A DNA stretch of 64,000 nt from Escherichia coli (GTDB lineage: Bacteria; Pseudomonadota; Gammaproteobacteria; Enterobacterales; Enterobacteriaceae): the NCBI RefSeq assembly GCF_013315695.1, contig NZ_CP054353.1. One strand, 5' to 3'. Shown here in pieces: positions 1 through 3,000 of the stretch. Numbering within the stretch: position 1 is the first letter of the stretch; each line of letters opens with the position of its first letter. The position numbers are program-made.

Positions 1-3000
1 TACCCTGTTTGTTTAATTATGTTGTACACCTCTTCAGGAGTATTCATAAAACAAGGCAAATGTAAAGAACTGTATTGTTTTGTATAACCACATGGTTACC
101 TAATCGCCAATTAATATAAGCTCCATTATTTCTCCATATTTTTATGTTAGAAGTGACAAGGAGAAATGTAATGTTTCTCTCAGAGAATATAAATCATTCC
201 TTTTGCACACCTTAATGGTGGGCTTTTTTATGCAAAACCTGAACGTCCTGTGGTATTACTCTGGCATAATGATTTTCGCGATTAACCAACAACCAGACCA
301 GCAAAGACGCCACCACAAGCACAGCAACATCCATCAGGCTTGCCACACCCCATATGTGCGGCTCAAAGCCGCCATGGCATATTAATCCGCTTGCCATTTT
401 CGAACAGCTGATTGGTTTAGTCCGGTGTTTCCCTGCTTGCACTTAAAAATGAGCGGATGGGAAACTCTCGAAATGGTTCGTCGATATGCTCACCTTTCAG
501 TCAGGCATTTCACCGCGCACGCGAGCAAAATCAAAGGCACAAGAGGAGAACGTAGTTTACTTAAATGTGAGATAACTTATTGATTTAAATGGTGCCGATA
601 AGAGGAGTAAAACACTCGATTAATCTCGTGTTAATGCCATCACCTACGACCATTACTAATTGATTGAATCTTATAGAAAAAATTATCATTTTCTATGCGT
701 TACAATCAATTTTCACATTACAAACGCTCCGACACTTTAGCCGGGGAGTTTATGAGATACAAGCCCAATCAATACATAATCTGTGATTCTTACGGTAACT
801 ACTATTTGAGGATCACGTTGCCTGTGTATATGCAGCCCTTTTTTGAAGGAAAAAGGACGTTTGTCAGAAGTCTGCACACAAGTAGTCTTCGTGTTGCACG
901 TAGAAAGCGTGATCAGATTGCAGATGAATACCATTGTCTACGGGAGAGTGTCGCCCCTGTAAACAGCACAATAGAGAACACGCTGGAACTGTTACGCAGT
1001 AAGGCTAAATACGCCAAAACAGCTACCAGAATGCAAGATACAGCGTCTTCGTGTCCGTCATTGCTTAAAATTCTTGAAATCTACCTGACAATTAACAGCA
1101 CGAAGAAGAAGCCAGCCACTTTAGCTAAGGCAAGAAAAGCGGTAGAGATGTTTCTCTCCTACCGTAAAAAGCCTGATATTGCATTGCAAGATGTAAGCCG
1201 CACCACTGTTACAGGCTGGATAGAACACATGCAAAAAACCCTTTCACAACAATCAATTGCAAATTATATCAGCCCAATGGCCCAGCTATGGGAGTTAGCT
1301 TCATCACGTTACCACGATGCGCCAGAAAGGGCGCTCTCCCCCTGGCGAGGGCATAGGCTTGATGTGGCACAAAGTAGAGAGAGCTACGAGGCATTTTCTA
1401 ACAAAGAGCTATTGCAGGTGTTGCAAGTATTTTCCGGTGATTCAGCAGAAAACAAAGAAATGATGGCTTTGTGTCTTATCGGTGCTTATACAGGTATGCG
1501 GATCAATGAGATAGCAAGTCTCACAATAGACGATGTGAAAGAGATCGAAGGTGTGCTGTGTTTTGAAATCACACAGGGAAAAACGAAAGCTGCGGCACGT
1601 CTTGTGCCTGTGCATAGCCTTATCACTCCGTTGGTGTTGTCGCTGCGTGAAAAGCCTCATAATGGCTTTTTGTTCTATCACGCCAGCATTACAGAGCGTG
1701 CTGATGGTAAACGTTCCACGTGGCACACGCAGAGATTTACAAGAGCTAAACGAAAGGCTTTAGGGGAAAAGGGAACAGAAAGGAAGGTGTTTCATTCTCT
1801 GAGACACGGAGTAGCACAGCTTCTTGATCGAAATCAAATTCCAGAAGACAGGATCGCCCTTCTCCTGGGCCATACACGCGGCAATACAGAGACATTCCGC
1901 ACATATAGCAAGAATGCAGCTTCTCCAGTAGAGCTTAAAAACTATATTGAGCTTCTACGCTACCCTGAAATAGAGAAAGGCTTATCAATCAATAAAAAAT
2001 CAAATTTAATGCGCAAAACAACGCCATAGACGCAATAAAGAGGCTTCAACATAGATTGGTAGCCTCTTTTATAATTACATCGTTACAGAGCGTTTTAGAG
2101 GCATTTACGGCTATTCCTGTTTAAAGGCAGGAGTAATAGTGTCTTCACCTTCACTACTTGATTTTTCAGTGTTAACACGTTTTTTCATATTCGCCCCGAT
2201 GTTCTTAGATGGCTGTGTTTTGATAGCTACAGTGTTTACAGTACCATAAGAAACTAATCTTATTTGTTCAAAGCTAAGATCAAATACCAGGGATTCGCTT
2301 GCCTCTTCTGTGTATTCGATGCCTGTTAAAACAACGTTCTCAAAAGTTTTATTTTCTGTAACAAGAAGAAAAGGCTGTCTACTGTCCATAATCTGATTCA
2401 AGTAGTCTATAGCTAATGATCTTCTGTTCCCGTTCACCCCTGCACTCTTTAACAAGCCAGGATCGCTTTTAATCGGTGTTTCAGTGATACGCCCTTTAAG
2501 AGAGAACTTATTGTTTTTAATTTGAACGTGATCAGACACAGTAGCACCATTTTCTACGGGGTAGCTTGTGACATCTGCCGAACGTCTCACGTTCACATCG
2601 TCAACACTATCAAAGGCCAGTGCCATATAATTTTCATAAACGTCATTACCAGAAGATGCCAAGCCACTGGTAACAATAGCAAATCCGTTCTCTCCTTTTG
2701 TTTTATTAGCTTTGCTATTTTCGTTTTTTGTAGAATTTATATCTTGTTCTGCTTTGTAAACAGCCTGAACGTGTTGTTCTGGAGTATTTGCTGCACGTAT
2801 GGTTAAAATCCCGGCGGTCGCCATAATAATAATTTTCCTTGTAATGTTATGGCGGGAATTCCCCGCCGTTGGATTGTCCTGATAAGCTGGTTAATGTTAA
2901 TGATTTCAAGAAGCTATCCCGACTTGCTCTCGCTGTAAAATCCACATAATCGCTCAATCGTCCGGTGTCTGATTCGATAGTTAGCGGCACTTCTGTTACC

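What the first reader, a model, noticed from the sequence alone, without database searches (positions are those of the whole stretch)
386..2029. Integrase 3' remnant immediately upstream of an intact integrase: repeatedly used integration site
A C-terminal integrase fragment (ending 583) lies 111 bp before a complete integrase gene in the same orientation. This suggests successive integrations or recombination between elements at one attachment site. No tRNA-like sequence was recognised nearby, so the site is unresolved.
Basis: partly seen in the sequence, partly recalled or inferred. Interest (0 to 1): 0.5.

Follow-up and report, generated by a model that had tools for sequence, protein, structure and literature searches.

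The report
Integrase relic at thrW integration hotspot
A dead stub of an old prophage's integrase lies next to the live integrase of a newer 12-kb mobile element because both used the same well-known landing site, the end of the E. coli threonine tRNA gene thrW; the pattern is real but ordinary.

Summary
Window 403-575 is the decayed last ~64 codons of an SfX/HK446-type lambdoid phage integrase. It has one stop, two frameshifts and a 29-bp deletion, and its true stop is at 573-575, not 583. An intact but unrelated tyrosine integrase (Int2, 752/695-2029) follows. Between the two, at 590-608 on the minus strand, lie the last 19 nt of tRNA-Thr thrW, which is the attachment core. Strains with an empty site (e.g. 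AF57, IAI39) read yagU, relic, intact thrW, proA. In APEC O1 and cq9 the Int2 element is a ~12-kb unit flanked by perfect thrW-3' repeats. In the window it is damaged by IS2 and a 6.4-kb deletion, and it ends at a degenerate core at 7507-7524. A third element follows, cut by IS1, and an IS1-IS1 inversion has moved thrW away. The relic occurs in 1,295 of 5,426 complete E. coli genomes and Int2 in 416. thrW is a published hotspot (CP4-6/ptwF, VAT-PAI, SfX). So "repeatedly used integration site" is correct, the site is now resolved, and the finding is already known. One side lead: the Int2 element carries capsid, tape-measure and Dit homologues of virulent Phapecoctavirus phages and could be an undescribed satellite.

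The parts
1..162 (.). yagU upstream intergenic DNA, core chromosome. The yagU start codon lies just left of the window, on the minus strand.
   Evidence: Collinear with K-12 yagU-paoA intergenic DNA up to window 162, then diverges.
279..406 (-). Fragment (C-terminal part) of a small lambdoid-phage 'b-region' gene. It is the far-end scrap of the old Int1 prophage and is annotated as a 61-aa hypothetical protein (ORF 212-397).
   Evidence: About 82% DNA identity to a 97-aa gene next to the tail-fibre genes of phages ev207, PhiR49 and Tritos. PHROG phrog_34165 scores 2.4e-14.
403..575 (+). Relic of the 3' end (residues about 323-386) of an SfX/HK446-type lambdoid integrase (Int1). It has an internal stop, two frameshifts and a 29-bp deletion, and it is non-functional.
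   Evidence: The full-length homologue is 97% identical to the integrases of HK446, HK542, HK75 and mEp213, and 95% identical to SfX Int. PGAP marks it as a pseudogene.
590..608 (-). 3'-terminal 19 nt of tRNA-Thr thrW (ACTCCTcTTATCGGCACCA, one mismatch at G601). This is the att core: the displaced copy that marks the thrW-distal end of the Int2 element and the old junction with the Int1 prophage.
   Evidence: The same core is a perfect direct repeat at both ends of the element in APEC O1 and cq9. It lies about 140-160 nt upstream of int2 in 22 of 25 IMG/VR loci; the other 3 have little or no sequence upstream of int2.
609..751 (+). Arm and regulatory region of the Int2 element, between the att core and int2.
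   Evidence: Homology with empty-site strains stops exactly at 608/609. From 609 the sequence is shared only with Int2-element carriers. A promoter-like site at 660-689 is no more than chance would give.
752..2029 (+). int2: an intact tyrosine recombinase of 425 aa (the longest ORF starts at 695, 444 aa).
   Evidence: Pfam Phage_integrase 1.3e-16, Phage_int_SAM_5 and DUF6538. The alignment to XerA (5HXY) shows Arg, Lys, HxxR and His, with a Tyr two residues from the aligned catalytic Tyr. Present in 416 of 5,426 E. coli genomes.
2111..2824 (-). Dit-like (distal tail / 'baseplate') protein of the Int2 element, 237 aa.
   Evidence: Pfam Dit_like 5.6e-29. It is 53% identical to the protein encoded immediately after the tape-measure gene of Phapecoctavirus phiWec188.
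2847..3799 (-). C-terminal part of the tape-measure-like gene of the Int2 element, cut by IS2.
   Evidence: phrog_16051 1.9e-54 for the intact 610-aa cq9 orthologue. Homology to cq9 ends at 3799.
3800..5130 (+). IS2 insertion (1,331 bp). Its right end abuts a 6.4-kb deletion that removed the capsid, replication and other genes of the element.
   Evidence: Relative to strain AF3, the window lacks L003 31866-38278.
5131..7506 (.). Remaining thrW-proximal part of the Int2 element, poor in ORFs.
   Evidence: Collinear with AF3 and partly with cq9 up to the thrW junction. No ORF over 127 aa and no Rfam hit.
7507..7524 (-). Degenerate thrW core (TCCTATTATC-GCACAA) marking the other end of the Int2 element and its junction with a third element.
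   Evidence: The alignment with the cq9 thrW::element junction is identical on the element side and unrelated on the other side.
7525..13807 (.). Remnant of a third thrW-integrated element (PerC-family regulator, P22 gp16-family ejection protein at 11693-13798). It is cut by IS1.
   Evidence: Annotation of the identical DNA in AF3 and MSB1_4I. In AF3 this element continues as IS1, a hypothetical gene, a P4-type integrase, then intact thrW and proA.
13808..14575 (.). IS1 copy (768 bp), one endpoint of an IS1-IS1 inversion that separates this array from thrW in the window's strain.
   Evidence: Window 13808-16232 equals AF3 L001 2425-1 in inverted orientation at 99.96%. MSB1_4I has the same layout as the window.

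Best explanation
The window opens on the far edge of the E. coli thrW (tRNA-Thr) integration hotspot, which lies between proA-thrW and yagU. Three mobile elements were stacked there by site-specific recombination with the 3' end of thrW.

(1) Int1 prophage. An SfX/HK446-type lambdoid prophage came first. Its int gene ends 14 nt from the tRNA end. An internal deletion later removed almost all of it, leaving about 170 bp of int (403-575) fused head-to-head to a scrap of a gene from the prophage's other end (279-406).

(2) Int2 element. A ~12-kb element with its own unrelated tyrosine integrase, Int2, recombined with the thrW core 5'-ACTCCTATTATCGGCACCA(T)-3'. The element supplies a new 3' end, so thrW stays intact. 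The original 3' end, with the Int1 relic still attached, is displaced to the far side of the element. That is why the relic, the 19-nt tRNA fragment (590-608) and int2 (752-2029) are now neighbours.

(3) Third element. An element with a P4-type integrase sits between thrW and the Int2 element, behind a degenerate core at 7507-7524.

Later damage. IS2, IS1, a 6.4-kb deletion and an IS1-IS1 inversion then damaged the array and moved thrW away from it.

Shown versus inferred. The homologies, the att copies, the empty site, the alternative occupants and the repeat-flanked 12-kb unit are shown. The order of arrival, the claim that Int2 itself catalysed the insertion, and the exact crossover point within the core are inferred.
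For: The HK446 GenBank record itself annotates the 63 bp after int as 'attP ... similar to thrW tRNA gene and ptwF'.

The thrW fragment at 590-608 is shown.

The empty site is seen in AF57, which reads yagU, relic, intact thrW, proA. It is collinear with the window up to position 608 and then continues into the body of thrW. The unoccupied layout occurs in 116 genomes, including IAI39.

The Int2 element is a discrete unit. In cq9 and APEC O1 an intact thrW, about 12-13 kb, int2 and a perfect 19-20-nt repeat follow one another.

The same element has different neighbours in different strains: yagP' in cq9, the vat island in APEC O1, a full-length Int1 prophage in SC477, and the relic here. The core sits upstream of int2 in every IMG/VR locus that has enough flank. 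Relatives with only 46-47% identical Int2 still sit next to a perfect thrW core.

Int2 has a complete catalytic domain.

The literature lists thrW among the most frequently targeted tRNA integration sites in E. coli, and describes proA-thrW...yagU as the conserved site of vat islands (PMC7545054; PMC6956023 and PMC6592367).
Against: thrW itself is not in the window, because an IS1 inversion has separated it, so the array is reconstructed from relatives (AF3, MSB1_4I, APEC O1, cq9). The far att copy of the Int1 prophage was not found, and the origin of window 163-278 is unknown. Both displaced cores still contain the whole 19-20-nt identity segment, so an element could in principle have entered at a displaced copy; the order of arrival is therefore not proven. 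The core next to the relic has one substitution (G601), and the 7507-7524 copy has two changes. No excision or integration activity of Int2 has been tested.
Confidence: 0.9

Rival explanations
1. The array was not built by separate integrations in this lineage. It was inherited or imported as a block by homologous recombination through the flanking core genes, or reshuffled by homologous recombination between related int or att sequences of co-resident elements. In that case the relic/int2 juxtaposition reflects recombination rather than integration here.
For: B2 strains (U15A, CFT073, ST131) share the relic only to window 495 and then carry a different integrase 3' end, a mosaic consistent with int-int recombination. 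The relic is inherited widely, in 1,295 genomes. Only 24 genomes have exactly this relic+int2 junction, which fits clonal inheritance.
Against: This explains how the arrangement spread, not how it arose. The junction falls exactly at the thrW core, and the Int2 element has perfect core repeats and varied neighbours, which is the signature of site-specific integration.
Confidence: 0.1
2. The Int2 element entered at a displaced (secondary) thrW core next to the relic rather than at the functional thrW. This would be integration into a prophage junction, so stacking order says nothing about age.
For: The displaced fragment keeps the full 19-nt core. The order of elements differs between strains: AF3 reads thrW, int3 element, Int2 element, relic, while APEC O1 reads thrW, Int2 element, vat island, relic. 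'Prophages integrating into prophages' is described for E. coli (PMC8112680, abstract seen).
Against: The differing orders are explained equally well by different arrival orders at the intact thrW. No strain examined has an Int2 element flanked by two partial cores with no element on the thrW side.
Confidence: 0.2
3. The fragment and the intact gene are two parts or copies of the same integrase: a tandem duplication, or a gene split by its own att site as in SSV-type integrases.
For: They have the same orientation and are close together.
Against: There is no DNA similarity between 380-620 and int2. The parent integrases are only 24% identical over 123 aa. The fragment is about 88% identical to the HK446 int 3' end. 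int2 is complete by itself.
Confidence: 0.01
4. The 'fragment' is a chance ORF containing an RYAHL-like motif.
For: It is short (52 aa as an ORF) and carries frameshifts.
Against: E = 1.3e-51 at DNA level against a phage int plus attP, with collinearity that continues through the attP arm into thrW.
Confidence: 0.005

Closest known systems
attP/int of thrW-integrating lambdoid phages (Shigella phage SfX; E. coli phages HK446, HK542, HK75, mEp213, mEp043, mEpX2, ECP1)
   Same: The relic is the 3' end of this integrase type. It is followed by the same short arm and the thrW-homologous core, in the same geometry: the int stop lies about 14 nt from the tRNA 3' end.
   Different: Only about 64 codons survive, with a stop, frameshifts and a 29-bp deletion. 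The rest of the prophage is gone except for a ~130-bp scrap of a b-region gene. The HK446 attP shares about 48 nt with thrW, whereas the Int2 element shares only about 20 nt.
Cryptic prophage CP4-6 with intF and the ptwF pseudo-tRNA in E. coli K-12
   Same: It occupies the same hotspot between thrW and yagU. The displaced thrW 3' fragment (ptwF) marks the distal boundary. K-12-like strains (cq9) also keep the last ~35 nt of an Int1-type gene next to that fragment.
   Different: K-12 retains yagP'-paoABCD between the hotspot and yagU, whereas the window's lineage lacks them. IntF is unrelated to Int1 and Int2. The K-12 displaced fragment is longer, about 50 nt.
VAT-PAI / PAI-APECO1-thrW / GI-thrW (ExPEC and APEC islands between proA-thrW and yagU)
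   Same: It uses the same insertion site. In APEC O1 the published ~20-kb 'PAI' consists of the Int2 element followed by the vatX-vat module and the same Int1 relic beside yagU.
   Different: The window has no vat. Its Int2 element is distal to another element and is broken by IS2 and a deletion.
Tandem arrays of integrative elements at tRNA genes (general phenomenon; e.g. 'prophages integrating into prophages', PMC8112680)
   Same: Each integration regenerates the target, so elements accumulate and are separated by partial target copies.
   Different: Nothing differs in principle. This is a three-element example with three unrelated integrases.
Phage satellites with structural genes (cf-PICI; PLE of Vibrio cholerae, which parasitises the virulent myovirus ICP1). 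This is a comparison for the Int2 element only.
   Same: The element is small (~12 kb), integrative and att-flanked. It has an integrase, a replication-initiator-like wHTH protein, and a partial set of virion genes whose nearest cultured relatives are virulent ~150-kb myoviruses.
   Different: No hallmark genes of P4, PICI, cf-PICI or PLE were detected: no alpA, pri-rep, portal, protease, terS, psu, sid or delta. Helper dependence is untested.

Membership tests
Tyrosine recombinase / phage integrase (Pfam PF00589): Int2, window 752-2029 | Catalytic domain recognised by the family profile | tested here: met
   Phage_integrase E = 1.3e-16 covering model positions 6-168 of 172, plus a SAM-like N-terminal domain and DUF6538. 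PHROG phrog_1 integrase scores 1.2e-32.
Tyrosine recombinase / phage integrase (Pfam PF00589): Int2, window 752-2029 | Catalytic residues R, K, HxxR, H/W and the nucleophilic Tyr | tested here: met
   The alignment to XerA (5HXY) pairs AYTGMR with AYTGVR, GKT with GKG, HSLRH with HVLRH and LLGH with ILGH. A Tyr (FRTYSK) lies 2 residues from the aligned catalytic Tyr, so the assignment of the Tyr is probable, not certain.
SfX/HK446-type lambdoid integrase: relic, window 403-575 | Sequence homology to the C-terminus of family members, including the catalytic-Tyr box | tested here: met
   Residues 323-386 are matched in three frames. There is about 88% nucleotide identity to HK446 int over aligned bases. 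The full-length allele at the same position in SC477 is 97% identical to the HK446, HK75 and mEp213 integrases and 95% identical to SfX Int.
SfX/HK446-type lambdoid integrase: relic, window 403-575 | Intact, translatable gene | tested here: not met
   The N-terminal ~320 codons are missing. There is an internal TAG, two frameshifts and a 29-bp deletion. It is a pseudogene remnant.
tRNA-gene (thrW) integration hotspot with a tandem array | Partial copy of the tRNA 3' end at the element boundary, as a direct repeat of the intact gene's end | tested here: met
   The core lies at 590-608 (1 mismatch) and a degenerate copy at 7507-7524. Perfect repeats flank the element in APEC O1 and cq9.
tRNA-gene (thrW) integration hotspot with a tandem array | Intact tRNA gene at the proximal end of the array | tested here: inconclusive
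   No tRNA is found in the 64-kb window, because an IS1-IS1 inversion has detached it. It is present at the expected place in AF3, whose DNA is otherwise near-identical there.
tRNA-gene (thrW) integration hotspot with a tandem array | Empty site in other strains, with a breakpoint exactly at the tRNA core | tested here: met
   AF57, IAI39 and 114 other genomes have it.
tRNA-gene (thrW) integration hotspot with a tandem array | Different, unrelated elements occupy the same site in different strains | tested here: met
   Occupants include a P4-like satellite, an AbiE/type I R-M island, the vat island, CP4-6, a lambdoid prophage and the Int2 element. thrW is also named as a hotspot in the literature.
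Phage satellite (P4-like, PICI, cf-PICI, PLE): Int2 element | Family hallmark genes (P4: psu/delta/sid/alpha; PICI: alpA plus pri-rep; cf-PICI: portal, protease, adaptor, terS; PLE-specific genes) | tested here: not met
   PHROG, NCBIfam and Pfam scans of the element's proteins found only an integrase, a Rep-like wHTH protein, a Phage_cap_E capsid protein, a tape-measure-like protein and a Dit_like protein.
Phage satellite (P4-like, PICI, cf-PICI, PLE): Int2 element | Helper-dependent induction, packaging and transfer | not testable with these tools
   This needs infection and transduction experiments.

The most novel reading that the evidence does not exclude
The ~12-kb Int2 element, whose integrase is the 'intact integrase' of the finding, may be an undescribed family of thrW-integrating phage satellites or phage-interfering islands. 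It carries only a decoration-like gene and a lambda-E-type capsid gene, a 76-aa gene, a tape-measure-like gene and a Dit-like gene. The nearest cultured relatives of these genes are the corresponding genes of ~150-kb virulent Phapecoctavirus/Justusliebigvirus myoviruses (Dit 53%, tape measure 27%, capsid 22% identity to phiWec188). That would make it an E. coli counterpart of the PLE-ICP1 logic, in which a satellite targets virulent phages. The copy in this window is broken.
Probability: 0.25. Interest if true: 0.65.

Novelty: already known. Interest (0 to 1): 0.15.

Why it matters
For the finding itself, the value is mainly annotation. It fixes the att site (thrW), the element boundaries in the window (590-608 and 7507-7524) and the origin of the pseudogene. 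It also shows that the relic is a lineage marker shared by about a quarter of complete E. coli genomes, not a sign of unusual biology. It is a clean worked example of how a regenerating tRNA target accumulates elements with unrelated integrases. If the side lead holds, a common E. coli island (8% of genomes, and part of the published VAT-PAI) would be a new type of satellite aimed at virulent phages that are used in phage therapy. That would matter for phage-host range and for therapy design.

Tried and rejected
- ARAGORN on the whole window and Rfam (gathering thresholds) on 1-15000 found no tRNA or other RNA family. The tRNA fragment was found only by comparison with other genomes and a pattern search.
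That rules out duplication and split-gene models.
- K-12 proved a poor 'empty site'. It shares only window 1-162 and carries paoABCD and CP4-6 instead.
- A promoter/terminator scan of 150-2200 gave no more hits than shuffled sequence. The short repeats around the core were not interpretable beyond IHF-consensus-like AATCAAnnnnTTA motifs, which is inference only.
- Int2 has no close relative among 50,697 cultured-phage records; the best is 28% identity.
- PADLOC found no known defence system in the Int2 element, only weak wHTH similarity.
- The phiWec188 tRNA-Thr does not contain the att core, so there is no sign that the element targets the phage genome.
- The original VAT-PAI paper (PMC187369) is not held in the library.
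- Two literature searches for a described satellite of Phapecoctavirus-like phages found none. Absence from this library is not proof of absence.
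Full report
**Where the window is**

The window is Escherichia coli chromosome. Its first 2,100 bases are 100% and 99.9% identical to strains AF3 and MSB1_4I. In both strains the gene just left of position 1 is yagU, on the minus strand, preceded by ykgJ and ecpEDC. Window 1-162 is collinear with the K-12 yagU-paoA intergenic region. From 163 on, the sequences are unrelated.

**Check of the observation**

The ORF list shows a 52-aa ORF at 425-583 containing GWETLEMVRRYAHLS, followed by a 444-aa ORF at 695-2029 on the same strand.

A full-length 386-aa integrase occupies the equivalent position in strain SC477. It matches the window in three reading frames:
- residues 323-334 at 412-447, with an in-frame TAG;
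- residues 335-363 at 446-532;
- residues 375-386 at 537-572.

The combined E-value is 5e-13. A multiple alignment shows that homology begins at about 403. A 2-nt and a 29-nt deletion cause the frame changes, and the authentic stop is TAA at 573-575. PGAP calls the same stretch an incomplete, frameshifted integrase. The fragment is therefore real.

The intact gene is a bona fide tyrosine recombinase. It has Pfam hits to Phage_integrase (1.3e-16), Phage_int_SAM_5 and DUF6538. Its catalytic motifs align with XerA. PGAP starts it at 752.

**The two integrases are unrelated**

The relic has no DNA similarity to int2. The parent proteins share only 24% identity over 123 residues, which is family-level similarity only.

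The full-length form of the relic is 97% identical to the integrases of lambdoid phages HK446, HK542, HK75, mEp213, mEp043, mEpX2 and ECP1, and 95% identical to Shigella phage SfX Int. Int2 has no relative closer than 28% identity among 50,697 cultured-phage records.

**The attachment site**

ARAGORN and Rfam find no tRNA in the window. However, many genomes matched window 536-608 under an annotated tRNA-Thr.

Strain AF57 has no island here. Its order is yagU, a small ORF, the relic, intact thrW, then proA. The window and AF57 are collinear up to TGGTGCCGATAA(G/T)AGGAGT at 590-608. After that point AF57 continues into the body of thrW, and the window continues into element DNA. That 19-mer is the reverse complement of the thrW 3' end. 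It occurs once in the window, against 0.01 expected by chance.

The GenBank record of phage HK446 annotates the 63 bp after its int gene as 'attP ... similar to thrW tRNA gene and ptwF'. Its int 3' end plus attP aligns with window 406-608 at E = 1.3e-51. So window 403-589 is the int-proximal arm of an old SfX/HK446-type prophage, and 590-608 is the tRNA core.

**What remains of the old prophage**

Window 279-406 is about 82% identical to the 3' part of a 97-aa gene. In phages such as ev207 that gene lies just beyond the tail-fibre genes, at the end of the prophage map opposite to int. The gene fragment and the int fragment both lack their 5' parts and meet head-to-head at about 403-406. A single internal deletion of nearly the whole prophage would produce exactly this arrangement, although that is an inference.

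The origin of 163-278 and the fate of the prophage's far att copy are unresolved.

**The element that owns int2**

In cq9 and APEC O1 the order is intact thrW, then about 12-13 kb of element DNA, then int2 reading inward, then a perfect copy of ACTCCTATTATCGGCACCA(T). After that come yagP'-paoDCBA-yagU in cq9, or the vatX-vat module, IS1, the same relic and yagU in APEC O1. The element is thus a discrete unit flanked by repeats, and it regenerates thrW.

In the window, the thrW-distal end of the element is at 590-608. IS2 sits at 3800-5130. A 6.4-kb segment present in AF3 (capsid, replication and other genes) is missing next to IS2. The other end of the element is a degenerate core at 7507-7524.

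Beyond that lies a third element, carrying a PerC regulator and a P22 gp16-family ejection protein, which is cut by IS1 at 13808-14575. In AF3 this third element continues to a P4-type integrase beside intact thrW and proA. In the window and in MSB1_4I, an IS1-IS1 inversion places LysR, aldo-keto reductase and fdeC there instead. That is why thrW is absent from the window.

**Population view**

| Feature | Genomes (of 5,426 complete E. coli) |
|---|---|
| Relic (window 170-535, at least 80% covered), including CFT073 and ST131 | 1,295 |
| Unoccupied relic-thrW junction, e.g. IAI39 | 116 |
| int2 present | 416 |
| Exact relic+int2 junction of the window | 24 |

Other occupants of the site include a P4-like satellite, an AbiE/type I R-M island with a pseudo-integrase, a complete lambdoid prophage with full-length Int1, and CP4-6 with ptwF in K-12. 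B2-phylogroup strains share the relic only to position 495 and then have a different integrase 3' end, which suggests int-int recombination.

**Mechanism**

Tyrosine integrases recombine an element-borne attP with the 3' end of thrW. The element carries a replacement 3' end, so the tRNA stays intact and can be targeted again. The displaced original end moves to the far side of the newcomer, along with whatever lay downstream. Repeating this with unrelated integrases (Int1, Int2 and a P4-type Int here) gives an array separated by partial tRNA copies.

The geometry, the repeats, the empty site and the alternative occupants are shown. Three points are inferred: that Int2 performed the insertion, the order of arrival, and the exact crossover point. 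Each displaced copy keeps the whole 19-nt core, so entry at a displaced copy cannot be excluded.

**Comparison with what is known**

thrW is listed among the most frequently used tRNA integration sites of E. coli (PMC7545054). The interval from proA-thrW to yagU is the published site of VAT-PAI, PAI-APECO1-thrW and GI-thrW. HK446-type phages are annotated as integrating at thrW. The Int2 element itself is part of the region published as the APEC O1 thrW island. The finding is therefore a correct reading of a well-known kind of locus.

**Side lead**

The intact Int2 element encodes:
- Int2;
- a wHTH replication-initiator-like protein;
- several small unknown proteins;
- a 120-aa protein followed by a Phage_cap_E capsid protein;
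- a 76-aa protein;
- a 609-aa tape-measure-like protein;
- a Dit_like protein.

It has no detectable portal, terminase, sheath or tube. Its Dit, tape-measure and capsid proteins are 53%, 27% and 22% identical to the corresponding proteins of the virulent 150-kb Phapecoctavirus phiWec188. In both the element and the phage, the Dit-like gene immediately follows the tape-measure gene.

Relatives with only 46-47% identical Int2 also sit beside a perfect thrW core, and they keep the capsid gene and the 120-aa gene. About 3.6 kb at the thrW-proximal end has no convincing ORF and no Rfam hit. No known satellite hallmark genes or defence genes were found, and no paper describing such a satellite turned up. 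A satellite or phage-interference role is possible but untested, and the copy in this window is broken.

Noticed in passing
window 609-7506 (intact copies: L012 2121-14346 in APEC O1; L010 36025-49400 in cq9): The Int2 element is a ~12-kb unit flanked by thrW repeats. It carries only a partial virion gene set: a 120-aa gene plus a lambda-E-type capsid gene, a 76-aa gene, a tape-measure-like gene and a Dit-like gene. The nearest cultured relatives of these genes are in virulent ~150-kb Phapecoctavirus phages (Dit 53% identity to phiWec188). It has no satellite hallmark genes and may be an undescribed satellite or interference island. It occurs in 416 of 5,426 E. coli genomes and forms part of the published VAT-PAI region.
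   Followed up: partly
window 5131-7506; L012 2121-5720: About 3.6 kb at the thrW-proximal end of the Int2 element has no ORF over 127 aa, no annotated CDS apart from a 52-aa one, and no Rfam hit. Strain cq9 carries a DNA-invertase cassette inside this stretch.
   Followed up: partly
window 3800-5130 and the junction at 5130/5131: An IS2 is inserted in the tape-measure-like gene. Next to it, a 6.4-kb deletion relative to strain AF3 removed the element's capsid, replication-like and other genes. MSB1_4I shares this state.
   Followed up: yes
window 13808-16232: An IS1 copy is followed by LysR and aldo-keto reductase genes in inverted orientation relative to strain AF3. This indicates an IS1-IS1 inversion of roughly 24 kb, which detaches the whole yagU-relic-Int2 array from thrW and splits the third element.
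   Followed up: partly
window 7525-13807: This is the remnant of a third thrW-integrated element. It carries a PerC-family regulator, a pRiA4b ORF-3-like protein and a P22 gp16-family DNA ejection protein (11693-13798). In AF3 it is linked to a P4-type integrase next to thrW. In MSB1_4I its primase and gp7/gp20-like genes lie on the other side of the inversion.
   Followed up: partly
window 495 onward, compared with L007 (U15A) and hits in CFT073 and ST131: B2-phylogroup strains share the small ORF and the relic only up to window 495, inside the RYAHL box. After that they carry a different integrase 3' end before the thrW core, giving a mosaic relic that suggests recombination between integrase genes.
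   Followed up: no
window 163-278: This stretch between the K-12-like yagU upstream region and the phage-derived scrap has no identified origin. The paoABCD-yagP block that K-12 and cq9 carry here is absent in this lineage.
   Followed up: no
window 601: There is a single substitution in the displaced thrW core: G here and in AF3, but T in thrW and in the other loci aligned.
   Followed up: no
L036-L039 (IMG/VR contigs): Integrases only 46-47% identical to Int2 are also placed about 130-150 nt from a perfect thrW 3' core (L038, L039). They are followed by homologues of the capsid gene and the 120-aa gene but not of the tape-measure or Dit genes. This points to a wider family of thrW-targeting, capsid-carrying elements.
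   Followed up: partly
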